From an uncultured Sphingomonadaceae bacterium (GTDB lineage Bacteria; Pseudomonadota; Alphaproteobacteria; Sphingomonadales; Sphingomonadaceae), in NCBI GenBank assembly GCA_964422665.1, contig CAYRCH010000001.1, positions 26,855 to 52,553 of the forward strand: a stretch of 25,699 nucleotides of DNA, written 5' to 3'. Below, in pieces: positions 17,157-24,299 of this stretch. Below the pieces are notes generated by a model. It was not told the origin of the DNA. It searched no databases and saw nothing but the letters and a program-made list of their open reading frames with translations. Every line of letters begins with the position of its first letter. Within the stretch, counting starts at the first letter, position 1. Both the position numbers and the translations under genes were made by a program.

Positions 17157-18332
17157 CTACAGTGCCTGTGCGGCTGCCCAGGCGCTGGCCCAGGCCCACT
17201 GGAAATTGTAGCCGCCGAGCCAGCCGGTCACGTCGACCGCTTCGCCGATCACGTAGAGGCCGGGTACGCGCCGGGCTTCCATGGTCTTGGACGACAGTTC
17301 CGCCGTGCTCACTCCGCCGATCGTGACTTCGGCCTTGGCGAAGCCCTCCGTGCCGGTGGGCTGGAATGTCCAGTCGCCAAGCCGCTCTTCCGCCTGCCGC
17401 AATACCGCATCGGTAGAGTTCGCGAGCGGGCCTTCCAAGCCAACCCGATCGGCGAGCGTGTCCGCCAGCCGGCCCGGCAGGACGCCCCGCAGCAGGCTGC
17501 GCAGGGTCGCCCGCGGTGCATCATGCTTGACCCCCAGCAGCCATCCCTCTTCCGCCTGCGGCAGGAAATCGATGCTGACGGGGTTGCCGGGGCGCCAGTA
17601 GGACGAGATCTGCAATATCGCGGGGCCTGACATCCCGCGGTGGGTGAACAGCGCCGCCTCCCGGAAGGCCGCACTGCCGGTGCGCGCGATGACTTCCGTC
17701 GCCACGCCCGAGAGATCGCGGAACAGCACATCCTCGCCGCCAAGGGTCAGCGGCACGAGGGCAGGGCGCGGCTCGACCACTTTGAGGCCGAACTGGCGCG
17801 CAAGCTCGTAGGCGAAACCGCTCGCCCCCATCTTCGGAATGGAAGGGCCGCCTGTGGCGATCACCAGCGCGCGCGCCTCGGCCACCTGCCGGTCGGTCGT
17901 CACCGTGAAGCGCTCGTCGCCATGGGAGACCTGCCGGATCGTCTCCTCGCATGCGATTGTCACCCCACCTTTGGCGCATTCGGTAAGCAGCATGTCCACG
18001 ATCTGGCGTGCCGATCCGTCGCAGAACAGCTGGCCCAGCGTCTTTTCGTGCCAGGCGATGCCGTAGCTTTCGACCAGCGCGAGGAAATCCTGCGGCGAGT
18101 AGCGGTTGAGCGCCGACTTCGCGAAATGCGGGTTGGCCGAGAGGAAGCGATCGGGCGCGGTGTGGATGTTGGTGAAGTTGCACCGCCCTCCACCGGAGAT
18201 CAGGATCTTCTTGCCCGGCTTCTCGGCATGTTCGATCACCAGCACCTTGCGCCCGCGCGCACCCGCCTGTGCCGCGCACATCAGCCCGGCGGCGCCCGCG
18301 CCAAGGATGATGACGGCATAGGGGGAATTCAT
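17157..18332 (-). CDS. HI0933/YhiN (BaiN-like) flavoprotein, NAD(P)/FAD-dependent oxidoreductase
   Basis: GAGAAG, GKKILISGGGRCNFTN, LFTHRGMSGPAIL, AEVTIGGV, GEAVDVTGWLGGYNFQWAWASA. Confidence 0.93.
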   Translation of the reverse strand: MNSPYAVIILGAGAAGLMCAAQAGARGRKVLVIEHAEKPGKKILISGGGRCNFTNIHTAPDRFLSANPHFAKSALNRYSPQDFLALVESYGIAWHEKTLGQLFCDGSARQIVDMLLTECAKGGVTIACEETIRQVSHGDERFTVTTDRQVAEARALVIATGGPSIPKMGASGFAYELARQFGLKVVEPRPALVPLTLGGEDVLFRDLSGVATEVIARTGSAAFREAALFTHRGMSGPAILQISSYWRPGNPVSIDFLPQAEEGWLLGVKHDAPRATLRSLLRGVLPGRLADTLADRVGLEGPLANSTDAVLRQAEERLGDWTFQPTGTEGFAKAEVTIGGVSTAELSSKTMEARRVPGLYVIGEAVDVTGWLGGYNFQWAWASAWAAAQAL

Positions 18333-18420
18333 TCTTGGCGCGGTCCCGGCAGCTTCGGCGTGCCCTTAGCAGTTTCGCGCGGGCTTGCGAGGGGGATCGG
18401 GCGCGGGGCGACCGGAAGGA

Positions 18421-19896
18421 CTACTCCGCCGCTTCTGCCTGCCCTGCTGCGGCGACGGCATCGTCGTCCGAAAGGTGGGCGCCCTGCTCGCGCAGGATCC
18501 CGCGCACTTCGCTCACATCGACTTCCCGCGGTTCGATCCCGCGGTTTGCAGCGACGGCGGATGCCACGCCCGCGGCATGGCCGGTCAGCCAGCATTGCGG
18601 GATCTCGCGCATGAAGCCGTGGCTGTTGGCATCGCAGCTCACGTGACGCCCGCCCACGGTCAGCCCGTCGAGCGCGCGCGGGACCAGGCTTCCGAGCGGA
18701 ACCGAGACCACCGGGAATTTCGGGCTGATCGAGGGGCTGATGCCGACCTCGTCCGCCACCGGCGTCCCGTCACTCCAGTTGCCGCGCTCGATCCGGCCGA
18801 TGCCCGCCAGGCGGCGCGTGTGGCGCACGCCGAGCTGGCTGCCGCTCTGCAGGCTGTAGGCATTCTCGAAGCCCGGCGCATGTTCGCGGAAGAAGCGGCA
18901 GTGCCGCTCCATGAAGCGGTGACTGCGGATTTCGAGCTCGGTCTGGTCGTCCACGTCGAGCGCATTGAGCCCCGACTGGCGCGGGCCGAGGAACAGCGCG
19001 ATATCCGGCCGCCAGCTGACATAGGGTGGCTGGAAGAAGCCCATATCCTCGCGCCCGCGCTGCAGGAAGGCGCGGTGTTCCTCCGGGTTCTCCACCTTCC
19101 AGCGGATCCAGCGGTCCATGTCCACGCCGCCCAGCACCCAGCCCGTATTGGCCGAATGGTGGACGTCGCCTTCTTCGATATCGGTGTCGAAATCGGCGCC
19201 CGCCCGGGCGAACATGTCGCCGTCGCCGGTGGTATCGACCACTTGCTTCGCCAGCAGCGCCTGGCGCCCTTCCTTGCTTTCGAAGATCACCCCGCGCGCG
19301 GCGCCATCCTGCACCAGCGGCCGGGCGGCCCAGGCGTGGAATACGATCCGCACGCCGGCCTCGAGCAGCATTTCCTGCGCGTTGAGTTTCATCCGCTCCG
19401 GATCGAGCGTGGGCGCCCACTGGACGATTCCGTGGAAGGCAGTGGTGCGCTGACCCCAGTAACCGGCCTTGACGGGGTCCTGGCTGCCCCAGTCCTCGGG
19501 CGGCGGGCCGGCAACCGACTCGCGCGGCATGCGCTCGATGAAATGGCGGGCGAAGCCCTGGATCACATGGTTGCCCTGCCAGTCGGTCATCCGGTCGATC
19601 CAGATGACCAGCCCGCCGGTGGAGAGCCCGCCGAGGTGGTTGTAGCGTTCGACCAGCGTGACATCGGCCCCGGCCTTGGCGGCGGCCCATGCCGCGGCGC
19701 AGCCCGAAGGTCCGCCGCCGATCACGGCGACGTCGCATTTGTGGTAGATGGCGATGTCGCGCGCATCCTCGCGGATGGTTCCGCCGCCATTGCGGGGCGG
19801 GAGGGCGCGGCTGTCGGCGGCGAATACGTCGGAACCGAGGAAACGTTCTTCGCTATGGCCCTCGACCCGCTGAACCCTGACTTCGTTTTCCGACAT
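18421..19896 (-). CDS. FAD-dependent oxidoreductase (FAD_oxidored/PF12831-like), substrate unknown
   Basis: DVAVIGGGPSG, ERYNHLGGLSTGG, VVDTTGDGD, VPLGSLVP...GGRHVS, REIPQCWLTGHAAG; ATG 19896 with GGAGAG RBS. Confidence 0.85.
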   Translation of the reverse strand: MSENEVRVQRVEGHSEERFLGSDVFAADSRALPPRNGGGTIREDARDIAIYHKCDVAVIGGGPSGCAAAWAAAKAGADVTLVERYNHLGGLSTGGLVIWIDRMTDWQGNHVIQGFARHFIERMPRESVAGPPPEDWGSQDPVKAGYWGQRTTAFHGIVQWAPTLDPERMKLNAQEMLLEAGVRIVFHAWAARPLVQDGAARGVIFESKEGRQALLAKQVVDTTGDGDMFARAGADFDTDIEEGDVHHSANTGWVLGGVDMDRWIRWKVENPEEHRAFLQRGREDMGFFQPPYVSWRPDIALFLGPRQSGLNALDVDDQTELEIRSHRFMERHCRFFREHAPGFENAYSLQSGSQLGVRHTRRLAGIGRIERGNWSDGTPVADEVGISPSISPKFPVVSVPLGSLVPRALDGLTVGGRHVSCDANSHGFMREIPQCWLTGHAAGVASAVAANRGIEPREVDVSEVRGILREQGAHLSDDDAVAAAGQAEAAE

Positions 19897-20037
19897 GCGC
19901 CTCTCCAGTGCTGAGGGTGCTAACCTTCCCCGGGGCAGGGCACAAGTTCGCTTGGCCGCGCTGCCACCCGAACAGCGCCATTGCACCACATCCCCGCATT
20001 CGCTAGGGGGCCGGTTCCCTGCTTTCCGGCGGGGACC

Positions 20038-20111
20038 GGCCCGATGGCGGAGTGGTTACGCAGAGGACTGCAAATCCTTGCACGCCGGTTCGATTCCGGC
20101 TCGGGCCTCCA
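20038..20111 (+). tRNA. tRNA-Cys (GCA)
   Basis: Acceptor stem GGCCCGA/TCGGGCC, anticodon loop CTGCAAA, T-arm GCCGG-TTCGATT-CCGGC, encoded CCA; 74 nt. Confidence 0.97.
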
Positions 20112-20170: not shown

Positions 20171-20246
20171 GCCGCTTTAGCTCAGTTGGTAGAGCACATC
20201 ATTCGTAATGATGGGGTCACGTGTTCGAGTCACGTAAGCGGCACCA
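20171..20246 (+). tRNA. tRNA-Thr (CGT)
   Basis: Acceptor stem GCCGCTT/AAGCGGC, D-arm GCTC/GAGC, anticodon arm CATCA-TTCGTAA-TGATG, T-arm ACGTG-TTCGAGT-CACGT, encoded CCA; 76 nt. Confidence 0.97.
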
Positions 20247-20333: not shown

Positions 20334-20639
20334 ATGTCCGACAGAAGCGAAGATCGACACCTGACGCTGATTCCGGGCCGGTACCGGATGGGCAAGGGTG
20401 TGGCGCACGCTGTCACCATCACCAATCTGTCGGAGCGGGGTTGCCGTTTCCACGACCGTTTCGGGCGCCTGACCCCGGGCGCCTTCCTGACGGTCAAGAT
20501 CGGCCCGGTCGGCCCGATCGAAGGCAATGTCGTGTGGCACTGCGACCACATGGCGGGGGTGGAATTCAGGGACAAGCTGCATCCCTCGGTGCTCGACCAC
20601 ATCCGCGCACATATCGACGAGCAGAAGGAAGCGGGCTGA
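20334..20639 (+). CDS. Stand-alone PilZ-domain protein
   Basis: RxxxR (RSEDR) and NxSxxG (NLSERG) c-di-GMP motifs, VVW...AGVEF; GGAGG RBS. Confidence 0.88.
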   Translation: MSDRSEDRHLTLIPGRYRMGKGVAHAVTITNLSERGCRFHDRFGRLTPGAFLTVKIGPVGPIEGNVVWHCDHMAGVEFRDKLHPSVLDHIRAHIDEQKEAG

Positions 20640-20649
20640 ACCGCACGCG

Positions 20650-20684
20650 AAAACGCCCGGCTCCGCAGGGGAACCGGGCGCTTT
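20650..20684. terminator. Probable bidirectional terminator between the PilZ gene and dhaK
   Basis: AAAA-CGCCCGG (20654-20660) pairs with CCGGGCG (20674-20680)-CTTT, between convergent genes. Confidence 0.6.
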
Positions 20685-20709: not shown

Positions 20710-21705
20710 TCAGAAGATGCGGCAGGCGCATTCCGCCGGCGCGGCGAGCAGCTCTTCGAGCTGGCCGTCGAGCTTGAGCATGGTCAGCGAGGCGCCGGCC
20801 ATTTCCAGCGAGGTGCAATATTCGCCGACATAGTTGCGGGCCACGGTCATGCCCTTGCCGGCGGCGAGTGCATGCGCCTTGTTGTAGATCACATAGAGCT
20901 CCGCCGGCGGGGTGCCGCCGAGCCCATTGACCATCAGCGCCACGCGGTCGCCACTGCCGAAGGGCAGGTCGCTGGCCACCGCATCGAACAGCGTCTGGGT
21001 GATCGAATCCGCATCGGTGATCTTGGCGCGTTCGCGGCCCGGCTCGCCATGGATGCCGACGCCGACTTCCATCTCGTCGTCGCCGATTTCGAAGATCGGC
21101 GTGCCCTTGGCCGGCGGGATGCAGCTGGTCAGCGCCACGCCCATCGTGCGGACATTGGCGTTCACCTTCTCGGCCACGGCGATCACCTCATCGAGGCTCG
21201 CGCCATTTTCGGCGGCCGCGCCGCAAGCCTTCATGACGAAGAAGTTGCCGGCCACGCCGCGGCGGCCGACCGTGTAGAGGCTGTCCTGCACGGCGACGTC
21301 GTCATTGATGATGAACTGCTTGACCTTGATGCCTTCGGCCTCGGCCATTTCGCAGGCCATGTCCCATGCCATGCGGTCGCCCTGGTAGTTGTTGACCAGC
21401 ACCAGCACGCCCGCATCGGAGGCGACGCATTTGATCGTCTCGAGGCAGGCATCGACCGGCGGCGCGGCGAAGACCGGGCCCTGGCAGGCGGCGGTCAGCA
21501 TGCCCGGGCCGACGGCCATGACATGCGCCGGTTCGTGGCCGGAACCCGAACCCTGGACGATCGAGACCTTGTCGGCCACGGGGCGGTCCTTGCGCTTGAT
21601 CAGCTGGAATTCCGGCAGGGCCTCCAGCAGGTCCGGGTTGGCAGCAACCACGCCGGCCATGAATTCGGGAACGAAGTTCTCGGGATTGTTGACGAATTTC
21701 TTCAT
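20710..21705 (-). CDS. dhaK: Dihydroxyacetone kinase subunit DhaK
   Basis: GSGSGHEP, NNYQGD, DDVA, GRRGVAG, GIHGEPG, NGLGGTP, YCTSLEMAGASLT. Confidence 0.93.
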   Translation of the reverse strand: MKKFVNNPENFVPEFMAGVVAANPDLLEALPEFQLIKRKDRPVADKVSIVQGSGSGHEPAHVMAVGPGMLTAACQGPVFAAPPVDACLETIKCVASDAGVLVLVNNYQGDRMAWDMACEMAEAEGIKVKQFIINDDVAVQDSLYTVGRRGVAGNFFVMKACGAAAENGASLDEVIAVAEKVNANVRTMGVALTSCIPPAKGTPIFEIGDDEMEVGVGIHGEPGRERAKITDADSITQTLFDAVASDLPFGSGDRVALMVNGLGGTPPAELYVIYNKAHALAAGKGMTVARNYVGEYCTSLEMAGASLTMLKLDGQLEELLAAPAECACRIF

Positions 21706-21733
21706 GGGTTATCCTCTCGCTTGATATTCGTTT

Positions 21734-22405
21734 TCAGGCGTCCTGGCGGTTGAGTTCGGCCGCCCTGGGCGTCCGTTCCACACCGAAATTGTTGCACCAG
21801 TCCTGCAGGATGGTGGCGATGGCGACAATGCCCGGATCGGGCGTATTCGCGCTGCGCGCACCCACCTGGCTGGCGCGGCCGCGATGGGCGACGAGCGAGC
21901 GGGTTGCATCGATCGCCTCGTCCGCCGCGTCGGCAGCTGCGGCCAGCGCGGCCTTGCCGTCGCCGGAGGGGGCATGCTGCTTCAGCGCCTCATGCACCGG
22001 GATCAGCGCGTCGAGCAGGGTCTTGTCGCCCAGCTTGGCGCCGCCGCGGGCCATGATGCCTTCGATCGCATTGCCGAGCATGTCGGAAAGATCGGCGAGG
22101 CTGATGGCGGACTTGCCCTTCGCCGCCATGCCGGCCTTCATGAAGCCCGTGCCCCAGATCGGGCCAGAGGATCCGCCGACATGCTTGGAGCAGAGCATCG
22201 AGAGCTTGAGCAGCTTGGCGCCGATATCGCCTTCGATCTGCGGCAGTTCGGCCTTGATGACCTTGAAGCCCGTGGCCAGCGAAGTGCCGAAATCGCCGTC
22301 GCCGGCGAGCCCGTCGAGGTCGGAGAAATACTTCTCGTTGCGAATGGCGGTGTCGGCGGTGATGTCCAGCGCCTGCTCGACTTGCGCCTGGCTGATTTCA
22401 CTCAT
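21734..22405 (-). CDS. dhaL: Dihydroxyacetone kinase subunit DhaL
   Basis: LDGLAGDGDFG, GGSSGPIWG, GDKTLLDAL, GRAS, PDPG. Confidence 0.92.
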   Translation of the reverse strand: MSEISQAQVEQALDITADTAIRNEKYFSDLDGLAGDGDFGTSLATGFKVIKAELPQIEGDIGAKLLKLSMLCSKHVGGSSGPIWGTGFMKAGMAAKGKSAISLADLSDMLGNAIEGIMARGGAKLGDKTLLDALIPVHEALKQHAPSGDGKAALAAAADAADEAIDATRSLVAHRGRASQVGARSANTPDPGIVAIATILQDWCNNFGVERTPRAAELNRQDA

Positions 22406-22425
22406 GTGCTTCTCTCCCGATCAGG

Positions 22426-23169
22426 TCATTTGCTTGCAGCGGCAATGCGCGCAAGGTCATCCAAAGTGAGGCGGGCGGGATTGTCGCCGAGTTCGGGCAC
22501 GATCTCGTCGGCCTCGGTGAAATCCTCGTCCACCGTGTAGGTGCTGGTGGTGATGGTGCAGGGCAGGCCTGCGCCCTTGGCGGCGAGCAGGCCGTTGCGG
22601 CTGTCTTCGATTACCATGCATTCATGGGCCTCGGGCCCGCCCTCGCCGATATCGAGCGACATTTTCGCCATCTCGTAAATCTCGGGATCGGGCTTCTTGG
22701 CCGCAACGCAGTCGCCGGCATGGACGAAAGAAAACTTCGCTTTCCGTTCCTCGCCGAACAGATCGAGCACCTTGTCGATGAAGGCCGGATTGGAAGTGGT
22801 GCACACGCCGAGCTTCACGCCGTTCGCGAGCGCCTCGTCCACGATGCGCGAAATGCCCGGCCGCAGCGGCAGCCCGCCTTCGCCGACCAGTTCGGAGACG
22901 ATCGCGGTCTTGCGCTTGTGCAGCGCGAGGATCAGTTCGTCCCGGCCGCCATGTTCGGCAACCTTGTCTTCGGGCCAGCCATATTCGTCAAAATAGGCGC
23001 GCATCCGCTCCTTGCCGCCGGCGACCAGCAGCAATTTGGCGTAAAGTTCGACGCTCCATTCGGCATCGATACCGAAATCCGCGAACGCGCGGTTGAAGCC
23101 GACCCGGTGCCCGTCGCGCTCGGTATCCACGAGCACGCCGTCGCAATCGAAAATCAGTGCCTTCAGCAT
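22426..23169 (-). CDS. HAD-IA hydrolase, CbbY-like sugar-phosphate phosphatase
   Basis: LIFDCDGVLVDTERDGHRVGFN (CbbY-type motif I), GGKERM, LRPG, KKPDPEIY, IEDSRNGL; ATG 23169. Confidence 0.88.
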   Translation of the reverse strand: MLKALIFDCDGVLVDTERDGHRVGFNRAFADFGIDAEWSVELYAKLLLVAGGKERMRAYFDEYGWPEDKVAEHGGRDELILALHKRKTAIVSELVGEGGLPLRPGISRIVDEALANGVKLGVCTTSNPAFIDKVLDLFGEERKAKFSFVHAGDCVAAKKPDPEIYEMAKMSLDIGEGGPEAHECMVIEDSRNGLLAAKGAGLPCTITTSTYTVDEDFTEADEIVPELGDNPARLTLDDLARIAAASK

Positions 23170-23185
23170 TCCCCCTGTCGCTCCC

Positions 23186-24073
23186 TCAGGCTGCCTGCTT
23201 GTAGGTATCGAGGAAGGGCTGGGCGCGGTTCTCGCCGCCGAACTTGGCGATGAAGCCGGAGAACATCTGTTTGCAGGCCTGATACTGTGCATCCATCACC
23301 CGCAGCGGTTCAAAATCCGTCGGGTTTTCCTTGTGGTAGTTCACGAAACTCTCGACGAAAACGTGCTTCAGATTGGTCGAGATATTCACCTTTGCCGCGC
23401 CGCGCGCGATCGCCCGGGCGAAGGTCTCGTCGGAAAGGCCGGTTCCGCCATGCAGCGCCATCGGCGTCTTGGTCAGCCGGTTGATCGCCTCGATCCGGTC
23501 GAAATCGACCTTGGGTTCGCCCTTGTAGAAGCCGTGCGCGGTACCGACGGCGCAGGCAAAGGCTGAGAGGTCCAGCGCATCGCAGAACTTCTTGGCATCT
23601 TCGGGATCGGTCAGCACCGAATCTTCCTCGGCCACCACCATGTCGTCTTCCACGCCCATGATCTGCCCGAGCTCGGCTTCCATGCCGACACCGTATTTCT
23701 CGGCAATCTCGCGCACCCGCTTCGACATTTCGAGGTTCTCCTCGAACGGCAGTTCGGACGCGTCGATCATGATCGAGGTCCAGCCGCTTTTCGCGCATTC
23801 CTCGATCATCGGGATGTCCTTGCAGTGGTCCAGATGGAGCACCACCGGCACCGGGGAATCCTCTGCCACCGTGCGCACCCAGGAGACGATTTCCTTGTGG
23901 CTGAAATATTTGATCGTCTTTGCGGAAGTCTGGCAGATCACCGGAGCGTTCAGCTCTTCTGCCGCTTTCACCATCGCCTTGGTGGTGTTGTAATCGACAA
24001 GATTGAAGGCAGCGACCGCGTAGCCATTGTCCATCGCGTCGCGCAGCAACGGTTTCATGTTCACCAGGGGCAT
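23186..24073 (-). CDS. Class II ketose-(bis)phosphate aldolase (Fba/GatY-like)
   Basis: YAVAAFN, LHLDH, SIMIDAS, EAELG, GTAHG, LHGGTG, KVNIST; GGAG RBS. Confidence 0.92.
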   Translation of the reverse strand: MPLVNMKPLLRDAMDNGYAVAAFNLVDYNTTKAMVKAAEELNAPVICQTSAKTIKYFSHKEIVSWVRTVAEDSPVPVVLHLDHCKDIPMIEECAKSGWTSIMIDASELPFEENLEMSKRVREIAEKYGVGMEAELGQIMGVEDDMVVAEEDSVLTDPEDAKKFCDALDLSAFACAVGTAHGFYKGEPKVDFDRIEAINRLTKTPMALHGGTGLSDETFARAIARGAAKVNISTNLKHVFVESFVNYHKENPTDFEPLRVMDAQYQACKQMFSGFIAKFGGENRAQPFLDTYKQAA

Positions 24074-24299
24074 TTCAGTCTCCTTGGCAACGCGCGAGGG
24101 GTGGCGCGTTGACTTTGTCTCGAATCACCGGCCCTTTCTTATAGGGCCTCTTGAGGGGTGGTGTCTCGCCCTGAACGGCGCTTGCCGATCATTCAAGGAT
24201 AAACAGCTTCCGCGTTCGCCCTTGGGACGCCATGATTGACATTCATGGGCAATTGCCGCCAGCGAGGCGCAGAATGGTTACAAGAGAAACCGGAGCGGG

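What the first reader, a model, noticed from the sequence alone, without database searches (positions are those of the whole stretch)
20710..24073. Four-gene operon (class II aldolase, CbbY-like phosphatase, dhaL, dhaK) suggesting an unassigned ketose-phosphate/triose pathway
Seen: four tightly spaced co-oriented genes (gaps 16, 20 and 28 nt) with no transporter, sugar kinase, regulator or RuBisCO gene alongside. Known: class II aldolases interconvert ketose-1-phosphates with DHAP plus an aldehyde; CbbY removes xylulose-1,5-bisphosphate in RuBisCO-containing organisms; DhaK/L-type kinases act on DHA and glyceraldehyde, and some family members on erythrulose. Inference, alternatives: (a) ketose-1-P cleavage with salvage of the free triose; (b) metabolite-damage repair; (c) aldehyde capture (for example formaldehyde or glycolaldehyde) onto DHAP, then dephosphorylation and re-phosphorylation. 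I do not recognise this combination as a named pathway.
Basis: partly seen in the sequence, partly recalled or inferred. Interest (0 to 1): 0.7.

Follow-up and report, generated by a model that had tools for sequence, protein, structure and literature searches.

The report
Kinase, aldolase, CbbY-phosphatase sugar-building operon
Four tightly packed genes (a class II aldolase, a CbbY-type sugar-bisphosphate phosphatase and a two-subunit dihydroxyacetone-type kinase) form a mobile operon that recurs in many bacterial groups lacking RuBisCO. It probably turns a small carbonyl compound into a sugar phosphate by a route I found no paper for.

Summary
Four minus-strand genes, with gaps of 16, 20 and 28 nt, encode a class II ketose-bisphosphate aldolase, a CbbY-family HAD phosphatase, DhaL and DhaK.

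Neither refuting condition holds:
- The genome has its own class I FBA (beside pgk) and a GlpX FBPase.
- The same four genes occur in the same order in all 17 family genomes I examined, in about 8% of the family (Erythrobacteraceae, by relatives' names), and in 16 of 44 informative metagenome loci.

The phosphatase is about 55% identical to Arabidopsis CbbYA. It keeps 37 of 42 near-invariant CbbY positions, yet no RuBisCO was found here or in two complete carrier genomes.

The conserved core is aldolase plus CbbY-like phosphatase. Partner genes vary: DhaKL, ethanolamine uptake/kinase/HisC-like transaminase genes, FGGY kinases, or a PDH-like E1/E2 complex.

Best reading (about 0.5): an assimilatory route. 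The kinase phosphorylates a small hydroxy-carbonyl, the aldolase joins DHAP to a phospho-aldehyde, and the phosphatase removes the C1 phosphate irreversibly. The product is Xu5P via XuBP (favoured) or F6P via FBP. No substrate has been tested.

This scan noted the same module before on other DNA (Chloroflexota, Actinomycetes and others). I found no paper describing it. Interest is moderate to high.

The parts
24074..24299 (-). Divergent intergenic region between the methylmalonyl-CoA mutase gene (+) and the aldolase gene (-). It presumably holds the operon promoter and 5' leader. It contains a GATTCGA motif and a GC-rich palindrome (24088-24111) just before the AAGGAG ribosome-binding site.
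   Evidence: Sequence read. The palindrome appears as a hairpin. A GATTCGA motif followed by a GCGC-rich hairpin recurs upstream of the aldolase in relatives (by eye). No consensus fold was obtained. No sigma-70 match was found.
23186..24073 (-). Class II (metal-dependent) ketose-bisphosphate aldolase, 295 aa. It is accessory, not the housekeeping FBA.
   Evidence: PF01116 at 7e-88. TIGR00167 scores 266.8, above its 215.6 cut-off. All FBA and TBP equivalog models score below their cut-offs. It is the only PF01116 gene in the genome, but a class I FBA lies elsewhere. It is 83-90% identical in related cassettes.
22426..23169 (-). CbbY-family HAD-IA phosphatase, 247 aa (xylulose-1,5-bisphosphate phosphatase type).
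   Evidence: 4uav at 8e-68 and 4uar at 1.7e-38. 37 of 42 near-invariant CbbY positions are identical and the other 5 are conservative. It sits in the clade of eukaryotic-phototroph CbbY plus aldolase-linked bacterial proteins.
21734..22405 (-). DhaL, the nucleotide-binding subunit of a two-subunit Dha-type kinase, 223 aa. It has GDGDFG where E. coli has GDADHG.
   Evidence: PF02734 at 1e-43. TIGR02365 scores 147.7, above its 138.3 cut-off. E. coli DhaL matches at 2e-31, against 1e-7 for the C. freundii ATP-dependent kinase. The Phe replaces His in all 18 module DhaLs compared.
20710..21705 (-). DhaK, the substrate-binding subunit, 331 aa.
   Evidence: PF02733 at 2.5e-120. TIGR02363 scores 416, above its 406 cut-off. 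L. lactis and E. coli DhaK match at 2e-83 and 2e-80, against 1e-50 for the ATP-dependent DAK. His56, Asp109 and His218 (E. coli numbering) are conserved. It is the only Dak1 gene in the genome.
20654..20680 (.). GC-rich hairpin between the convergent stops of dhaK and a small plus-strand ORF. It is probably a bidirectional terminator that closes the operon.
   Evidence: Read by eye: stems CGCCCGG and CCGGGCG, followed on the minus strand by TTTT. The scan tool did not flag it.

Best explanation
This is an accessory, horizontally spread four-gene operon. It most likely builds a ketose monophosphate from a small hydroxy-carbonyl compound in three steps.

1. DhaK-DhaL phosphorylates the carbonyl compound. 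Dihydroxyacetone to DHAP is the conservative reading. Glycolaldehyde or glyceraldehyde are open alternatives. The phosphoryl donor is unresolved, because no DhaM gene is present.
2. The class II aldolase condenses DHAP with a phospho-aldehyde to a D-threo ketose 1,n-bisphosphate.
3. The CbbY-type phosphatase removes the C1 phosphate. This makes the condensation irreversible and releases a pentose-phosphate-pathway or glycolytic intermediate.

My favoured version (about 0.3 of the total) is phosphoglycolaldehyde + DHAP -> xylulose-1,5-bisphosphate -> xylulose-5-phosphate. The self-contained alternative (about 0.2) is GAP + DHAP -> FBP -> F6P.

Shown: the gene families, the conserved catalytic residues, the conservation and spread of the module, and its independence from RuBisCO and from the housekeeping FBA and FBPase. 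Inferred: every substrate, the direction of flux and the phosphoryl donor.
For: - Unit of selection. The same four genes in the same order occur in 17 of 17 related genomes examined, while the flanking genes differ. The CbbY-like gene was found in 24 of 300 other family genomes and in 12 of 112 genera including the window's own. No close relative of the aldolase was found in 400 sampled genomes of the class.
- Metagenomes. Of 44 loci with both flanks, 27 have a class II aldolase directly upstream of the CbbY-like gene. Sixteen of these also carry DhaL-DhaK, and none has Dha genes without the aldolase.
- The aldolase and phosphatase are not housekeeping. A class I FBA sits beside pgk and a GlpX FBPase is present.
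- The phosphatase is a true CbbY relative. It keeps 37 of 42 near-invariant positions, including the charged cap residues. It groups with plant-type CbbYA, which is a C1-specific XuBP phosphatase (PMC10212915).
- No RuBisCO was found in G000 or in complete carrier genomes G012 and G016. Its bisphosphate substrate must therefore come from elsewhere. The adjacent aldolase makes exactly the D-threo configuration that distinguishes XuBP from RuBP (established aldolase chemistry).
- C2 supply genes sit next to the aldolase-CbbY pair elsewhere. L171 has EutH plus a choline/ethanolamine-kinase-like gene. L141 has a HisC-like aminotransferase plus two alanine dehydrogenases. L143 and L148 have a DHDPS-family aldolase plus an FGGY kinase. 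These contexts point to a C2 phospho-aldehyde acceptor, and so to XuBP.
- Carbonyl-producing oxidoreductases sit next to DhaKL-type modules. Examples are PQQ dehydrogenases of the glucose/quinate/shikimate type (L198, L199, L202 on the same strand; L089), a GMC oxidoreductase plus ALDH (L180), and SDRs (L114, L155).
- DhaK keeps His56, Asp109 and His218.
- Contigs from RNA libraries of two studies bridge all three gene junctions. This is weak support for expression.
Against: - No enzyme of this module has been assayed, so every substrate is inferred.
- Known CbbYs use FBP poorly (PMC9833046, citing Bracher 2015). This counts against the self-contained FBP version.
- For the XuBP version, no source of phosphoglycolaldehyde was found in this genome. 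tblastn with the L171 EutH and kinase queries found nothing in this 83%-complete genome. I also found no report of a Dha-type kinase acting on glycolaldehyde.
- DhaK and DhaL resemble the PTS-dependent type, but no DhaM gene is in the operon. The only EIIA-Man gene lies in the rapZ-EIIA-NPr cluster.
- L114 (SDR, sugar ABC transporter, RpiB, split transketolase) fits a tetritol/erythrulose reading as well.
- The frequent link to PDH-like E1/E2 genes is not explained by this scheme.
Confidence: 0.5

Rival explanations
1. Tetritol or other small-ketose catabolism. DhaK-DhaL is an erythrulose (or similar) kinase. The product is isomerised to erythrose-4-phosphate. The aldolase and phosphatase then act as SBP aldolase and SBPase (E4P + DHAP -> SBP -> S7P).
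For: L114 has an SDR, a sugar ABC transporter, GntR, the four-gene module, RpiB and a split transketolase in one block. L148 has RpiB after the aldolase-CbbY pair. The PQQ dehydrogenases next to some family cassettes are of the glucose/quinate/shikimate type. From my own knowledge, that type includes Gluconobacter polyol dehydrogenase, which makes erythrulose and DHA.
Against: The window and the 16 other family cassettes have no polyol dehydrogenase, transporter or RpiB as a conserved neighbour. DhaK passes the DHA-kinase equivalog model. From memory, the mycobacterial erythrulose kinases are fused ATP-dependent forms. SBP is one carbon further from XuBP than FBP is.
Confidence: 0.1
2. Catabolic reading. 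A ketose phosphate is cleaved by the aldolase to DHAP plus a free aldehyde or triose, and the Dha kinase salvages that product.
For: Class II aldolases are reversible. Dha-type kinases phosphorylate DHA and glyceraldehyde, which are typical cleavage products of ketose-1-phosphates (established knowledge). DhaK catalytic residues are intact.
Against: No kinase or transporter that would make the ketose phosphate is conserved with the module. The scheme gives the CbbY-type phosphatase no role. Yet the aldolase-phosphatase pair is the invariant core: 27 of 44 loci have it, and none has Dha genes without the aldolase. A C1 phosphatase would destroy the aldolase's substrate.
Confidence: 0.1
3. Detoxification or damage control. 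The operon removes reactive DHA or short aldehydes. The CbbY-like enzyme only clears an inhibitory bisphosphate (such as XuBP) that the aldolase makes as a side product.
For: CbbY is a damage-repair enzyme in phototrophs (PMC10212915). DHA and glycolaldehyde are toxic (general knowledge). The genome already has a complete FBA and FBPase set.
Against: The pair is embedded in uptake and catabolic clusters in several phyla, which fits carbon assimilation better. One CbbY-like protein is fused to lipoyl and E3-binding domains, which suggests a pathway enzyme. No RuBisCO target exists to protect.
Confidence: 0.1

Closest known systems
CbbY / XuBPase of CBB-cycle organisms (R. sphaeroides CbbY, Arabidopsis CbbYA; PDB 4uar, 4uav)
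   Same: Same HAD-IA family. About 55% identity to AtCbbYA at E 8e-68. 37 of 42 near-invariant positions are kept, including the cap residues. It lies in the same clade as plant-type CbbY.
   Different: No RuBisCO or cbb operon in the genome or in complete carrier genomes. The gene is paired instead with a class II aldolase. Reviews state that CbbY orthologues are thought to be confined to photosynthetic organisms (PMC9833046). The substrate here is untested.
PTS-dependent dihydroxyacetone kinase DhaK-DhaL-DhaM (E. coli, Lactococcus lactis)
   Same: DhaK and DhaL score above the NCBIfam equivalog cut-offs. They are closest to the solved PTS-type subunits. The DhaK catalytic His/Asp/His triad is kept.
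   Different: No dhaM and no DhaR/DhaS regulator. DhaL has Phe where E. coli has His38 in the GDxDHG motif, in all 18 module DhaLs compared. The kinase is co-inherited with an aldolase and a phosphatase, not with glycerol dehydrogenase.
Dihydroxyacetone (xylulose-monophosphate) cycle of methylotrophic yeasts: DHA kinase, FBP aldolase, FBPase
   Same: Same order of reaction types: DHA kinase, then DHAP-dependent aldolase, then C1 bisphosphatase. The result is a ketose monophosphate (established pathway, from my own knowledge).
   Different: The enzymes belong to different families: an ATP-dependent fused DAK, and a class I/II FBPase rather than a HAD. No DHA synthase is linked here. Nothing in the window points to methylotrophy.
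Non-carboxylating pentose bisphosphate pathway of haloarchaea (PMC9700705)
   Same: A pentulose bisphosphate serves as a real intermediate without RuBisCO. It is handled by a HAD-type bisphosphate phosphatase and a DHAP-forming aldolase, and glycolaldehyde is the C2 partner.
   Different: As I recall the paper beyond its abstract, that route runs catabolically (RuBP -> Ru1P -> DHAP + glycolaldehyde). It removes the C5 phosphate and uses a fuculose-type aldolase. The proteins are not orthologous.
In vitro DHA kinase / DHAP aldolase / phosphatase cascades used for rare-sugar synthesis (e.g. PMC5675407)
   Same: The same three activities in the same logical order.
   Different: A man-made cascade that uses non-phosphorylated aldehydes and unspecific phosphatases. 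It is not a natural operon.

Membership tests
Class II ketose-bisphosphate aldolase (PF01116 / TIGR00167) | Full-length match above the curated cut-off | tested here: met
   PF01116 scores 295 bits over positions 1-276 of 277. TIGR00167 scores 266.8 against a 215.6 cut-off.
Housekeeping class II FBP aldolase (TIGR01859 / NF009497) or tagatose-bisphosphate aldolase (TIGR01858, GatY/KbaY) | Score above the equivalog cut-off | tested here: not met
   Scores against cut-offs: 290.9 vs 343; 289.3 vs 423; 263.1 vs 443.6; 277.4 vs 383.
Housekeeping class II FBP aldolase | Being the genome's only FBP aldolase | tested here: not met
   A class I FBA (NF003784, 456 bits against a 392 cut-off) lies next to pgk on contig C102.
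CbbY / xylulose-1,5-bisphosphate phosphatase | Sequence membership, and conservation of residues invariant among RuBisCO-linked CbbYs | tested here: met
   4uav at 8e-68 and 4uar at 1.7e-38. 37 of 42 positions are identical and 5 are conservative. The published list of XuBP-contact residues was not available to me.
CbbY / xylulose-1,5-bisphosphate phosphatase | Co-occurrence with RuBisCO / cbb genes | tested here: not met
   No PF00016 match in G000 (83% complete), G012 (99%) or G016 (100%).
CbbY / xylulose-1,5-bisphosphate phosphatase | Selective C1 dephosphorylation of XuBP | not testable with these tools
   Needs an enzyme assay.
PTS-dependent DHA kinase DhaKLM | DhaK and DhaL subunits above equivalog cut-offs, with the DhaK His56/Asp109/His218 triad | tested here: met
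   TIGR02363 scores 416.2 against 406.25. TIGR02365 scores 147.7 against 138.3. The residues are conserved.
PTS-dependent DHA kinase DhaKLM | DhaM phosphoryl-donor subunit encoded with DhaK and DhaL | tested here: not met
   No third Dha gene was seen adjacent in the window or in the roughly 35 module loci examined. The only EIIA-Man gene in the genome is in the rapZ-EIIA-NPr cluster. Whether it serves as the donor is unknown.
PTS-dependent DHA kinase DhaKLM | DhaL GDxDHG motif as in E. coli | tested here: not met
   GD(G/A)DFG in the window and in all 18 module DhaLs compared. The functional meaning is unknown.
Tetritol (erythritol/threitol) catabolic clusters with erythrulose kinase | Adjacent polyol dehydrogenase, sugar ABC transporter and RpiB/TIM-type isomerase | tested here: not met
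   None is present in the window or conserved in family cassettes. All are present in one distant locus, L114.

The most novel reading that the evidence does not exclude
The DhaK-DhaL pair of this module is a glycolaldehyde kinase. The operon would then be a complete three-step route for assimilating glycolaldehyde: glycolaldehyde -> phosphoglycolaldehyde; + DHAP -> xylulose-1,5-bisphosphate; -> xylulose-5-phosphate. XuBP, known only as a RuBisCO misfire product, would be a regular metabolic intermediate in heterotrophs, and the aldolase-linked bacterial proteins would be the closest bacterial relatives of plant-type CbbY.
Probability: 0.25. Interest if true: 0.85.

Novelty: new variant of a known kind. 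Interest (0 to 1): 0.62.

Why it matters
If the reading holds, CbbY-type phosphatases have a metabolic role outside photosynthesis, contrary to the stated view that they are confined to phototrophs. A widespread aldolase-phosphatase pair would then define an undescribed, irreversible C2/C3-to-sugar-phosphate entry into central metabolism. That entry would be fed by different upstream modules: Dha-type kinase, ethanolamine kinase plus transaminase, FGGY kinases, or PDH-like complexes.

It would also give natural parts for engineering glycolaldehyde, ethylene glycol or DHA assimilation. It would give a testable origin for plant CbbYA. The module is compact, cultured carriers exist (for example Altericroceibacterium xinjiangense and Croceibacterium aestuarii), and all candidate substrates can be assayed.

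Tried and rejected
- Housekeeping FBA reading: rejected. A class I FBA beside pgk and a GlpX FBPase are present.
- Remnant of a cbb operon: rejected. No RuBisCO was found in this genome or in complete carriers. The aldolase is the short type, not the CbbA type (TIGR01521 scores 113 against a 496 cut-off).
- Replacement for a missing transaldolase: no signal. Transaldolase is present in relatives with and without the cassette. It was not found in G000, which is only 83% complete.
- A sugar-type E1/E2 complex in the carrier genomes: not found. The four PF00676 matches per genome are at the same four syntenic places in all four genomes and look like the ordinary housekeeping set, by size and position only.
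- Ethanolamine permease, kinase, DHDPS-aldolase and FGGY queries from other loci against the genome: only an RpiB-like match.
- Conserved flanking genes in the family. One group shares valine and propionate catabolism genes (TauD, RidA, acyl-CoA dehydrogenase, ECH_2), which I judged to be chromosomal synteny. Only two genera have PQQ dehydrogenases next to the cassette.
- A conserved RNA structure in the 5' leader: no consensus fold and no Rfam family.
- Literature searches all returned nothing relevant: CbbY + dihydroxyacetone kinase; glycolyl-CoA + dehydrogenase complex + xylulose; glycolaldehyde phosphate + xylulose + aldolase; erythrulose kinase; 'glycolaldehyde kinase'; DhaK + DhaL + glycolaldehyde.
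- Bracher et al. 2015 could not be read, so the published XuBP-contact residues were not checked one by one.
- I did not analyse the aldolase's distal phosphate-binding residues, because I could not recall them reliably.
- One look-up failed on a wrong ORF end and was repeated.


Full report
**Observation**

- aldolase, 23186-24073;
- HAD phosphatase, 22426-23169;
- dhaL, 21734-22405;
- dhaK, 20710-21705.

All are on the minus strand, with gaps of 16, 20 and 28 nt. The phosphatase's true start is the ATG at 23169. Pfam and NCBIfam confirm the families.

The operon is bounded upstream by a 226-bp divergent region shared with a methylmalonyl-CoA mutase gene. Downstream lie a GC-rich hairpin, a small convergent ORF and two tRNA genes, Cys and Thr.

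The window lies in an 83%-complete metagenome-assembled genome. By the names of its nearest relatives it belongs to the Erythrobacteraceae (Croceibacterium, Altericroceibacterium).

Neither holds.
- The cassette aldolase is the only PF01116 gene. However, the genome has a class I FBA above its equivalog cut-off next to pgk and a GlpX FBPase. The cassette enzymes are therefore accessory.
- The cluster is conserved. The same four genes in the same order were found in all 17 family genomes I examined (the window itself), and in six further genome contigs, some cut by contig ends. The flanking genes differ between these genomes.
- In a census of the family, 24 of 300 other genomes carry the CbbY-like gene, in 12 of 112 genera including the window's own.
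- No close relative of the aldolase was found in 400 sampled genomes of the class.
- This patchy but genus-consistent spread, together with the varied contexts, fits horizontal transfer of a self-contained module.

**The phosphatase**

It is a genuine CbbY relative: E 8e-68 and about 55% identity to Arabidopsis CbbYA, and 1.7e-38 to R. sphaeroides CbbY.

I compared 42 positions that are nearly invariant in 19 CbbYs from phototrophic eukaryotes, cyanobacteria and other bacteria (mostly autotrophs by name) with 13 aldolase-linked homologues. Thirty-seven are identical and the other five are conservative changes. The polar cap residues are all among the conserved ones.

A quick maximum-likelihood tree separates cbb-operon and cyanobacterial CbbYs from a clade holding the eukaryotic-phototroph CbbYs and the aldolase-linked bacterial proteins (SH-aLRT 98).

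No RuBisCO was found in this genome or in two complete carrier genomes. A review states that CbbY orthologues are believed absent outside photosynthetic organisms, and that FBP is a much poorer substrate than XuBP (PMC9833046). Plant CbbYs remove the C1 phosphate of XuBP selectively (PMC10212915).

**The conserved core and its partners**

I looked at the nearest non-family homologues and at 80 metagenome loci. The invariant core is a class II aldolase directly upstream of the CbbY-like gene.

Of 44 metagenome loci with both flanks:
- 27 have this pair;
- 16 of those also have DhaL-DhaK;
- none has Dha genes without the aldolase;
- 17 have neither. I took these for cbb-type genes but did not annotate them.

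Other partners of the pair:
- A PDH-like E1alpha/E1beta/E2 set, in three phyla. The aldolase is sometimes inserted between E1beta and E2. In one case, lipoyl and E3-binding domains are fused to the CbbY-like domain.
- FSA/transaldolase, PfkB kinases, xylose-isomerase-like TIM barrels and FG-GAP proteins.
- Phosphopentomutase, Fe-ADH and nucleoside uptake genes.
- DeoC plus an FGGY kinase.
- A DHDPS-family aldolase plus an FGGY kinase.
- Ethanolamine permease EutH plus a choline/ethanolamine-kinase-like gene (L171).
- A HisC-like aminotransferase plus two alanine dehydrogenases (L141).

The last two contexts most simply supply phosphoglycolaldehyde. With DHAP and a D-threo-specific aldolase, that gives XuBP, the known CbbY substrate. 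The two loci above are my own check of that lead.

**The kinase**

DhaK and DhaL pass the NCBIfam equivalog models. They are closer to the PTS-type subunits than to the ATP-dependent fused kinase. DhaK keeps His56, Asp109 and His218.

No DhaM gene accompanies them here or in any module locus examined. The genome's one EIIA-Man gene lies in the rapZ-EIIA-NPr cluster.

All 18 module DhaLs compared have Phe in place of the His in the E. coli GDADHG motif. The phosphoryl donor is therefore unresolved.

Next to DhaKL-type modules I found enzymes that make small carbonyl compounds:
- PQQ dehydrogenases of the glucose/quinate/shikimate type, in two genera of the family;
- a GMC oxidoreductase with an aldehyde dehydrogenase;
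- SDRs.

In one genome (L105) DhaL is reduced to 76 aa and DhaK has Arg at position 218, while the aldolase and phosphatase are intact. The pair can evidently persist without the kinase.

**Mechanism**

The best-supported scheme is assimilatory:
1. The kinase makes a phospho-carbonyl.
2. The aldolase condenses DHAP with a phospho-aldehyde.
3. The CbbY-type enzyme removes the C1 phosphate and makes the step irreversible.

I put about 0.5 on this scheme. Within it:
- About 0.3 on XuBP -> Xu5P. This fits the phosphatase family and the C2-supply contexts. It needs either a glycolaldehyde-phosphorylating Dha kinase or another source of phosphoglycolaldehyde, and I found neither.
- About 0.2 on FBP -> F6P. 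This version is self-contained through triose-phosphate isomerase, but known CbbYs use FBP poorly.

Rivals, each at about 0.1, are a tetritol/erythrulose-SBP route (supported by L114), catabolic ketose-1-P cleavage, and detoxification or repair. The link to PDH-like complexes is unexplained by any of these.

**Expression and habitat**

Near-identical sequence occurs in compost, manure, soil and fungus-associated metagenomes from 12 studies. Contigs from RNA libraries of two studies bridge the aldolase-phosphatase, phosphatase-dhaL and dhaL-dhaK junctions. This is weak support for transcription, because DNA carry-over cannot be excluded and contigs do not prove a single transcript.

**Novelty**

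I found no paper describing this operon or a glycolaldehyde kinase. All four protein families are known; the combination and the RuBisCO-independent role for CbbY are not.

This scan noted the same module several times before on other DNA, in Chloroflexota, Actinomycetes and others. One earlier follow-up reached a similar 'builds sugar phosphates from a small carbonyl' reading. Those notes are leads, not independent evidence.

Noticed in passing
L015:2651-6820; L016:7119-12098; L017:3779-9427; L124; L179: In Sumerlaeota, Acidobacteriota and a Pseudomonadota MAG, the nearest CbbY-like genes sit inside operons with a divergent PDH-like E1alpha/E1beta/E2 set. That set scores below the PDH equivalog cut-offs. 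In L017 the class II aldolase is inserted between E1beta and E2, and an FSA gene follows. I cannot explain what a lipoate-dependent complex does next to an aldolase and a bisphosphate phosphatase.
   Followed up: partly
L106:1032-2246 (protein P0123): A 404-aa protein joins a lipoyl domain and an E3-binding domain to a CbbY-like HAD domain, in place of the E2 acyltransferase domain. FSA/TAL, a xylose-isomerase-like TIM barrel and FG-GAP proteins follow. It may be a real fusion or an assembly or frameshift artefact.
   Followed up: no
tree (proteins P0129, P0131, P0132 and others): CbbY proteins of eukaryotic phototrophs (oak, Porphyridium, Vitrella) group with the aldolase-linked proteins of heterotrophic bacteria, not with cyanobacterial CbbY (SH-aLRT 98 on a quick, unrooted tree). 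This hints at a non-cyanobacterial origin of plant CbbYA.
   Followed up: partly
window 20038-20111 and 20171-20246 (+): tRNA-Cys(GCA) and tRNA-Thr(CGT) lie just beyond the operon's 3' end. tRNA genes are common insertion points for acquired DNA, which would fit the cassette's patchy distribution. No repeats or integrase were looked for.
   Followed up: no
window 20334-20639 (+): A 101-aa ORF converges on dhaK. By eye it has RxxxR and NLSERG motifs like a PilZ (c-di-GMP-binding) domain. NCBIfam gave no match and Pfam was not run on it.
   Followed up: no
window 24088-24140 (-); upstream of the aldolase in L007, L089, L011, L014, L105: A GATTCGA motif followed by a GCGC-rich hairpin lies 20-60 nt before the aldolase start in most family cassettes. 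It could be a promoter or leader element, or an operator. No consensus fold or Rfam family was found.
   Followed up: partly
L105:8775-10102: In one genome (67% identical phosphatase) DhaL is reduced to a 76-aa ORF and DhaK has Arg in place of the substrate-binding His218. The aldolase and phosphatase are intact, so the kinase appears to be decaying.
   Followed up: partly
window 17157-19989 (-): Beyond the tRNA genes and on the same strand lie two flavoproteins: an FAD_oxidored family protein (PF12831) and an HI0933-like 'aminoacetone oxidase family' protein. Neither is conserved next to the cassette in relatives.
   Followed up: partly
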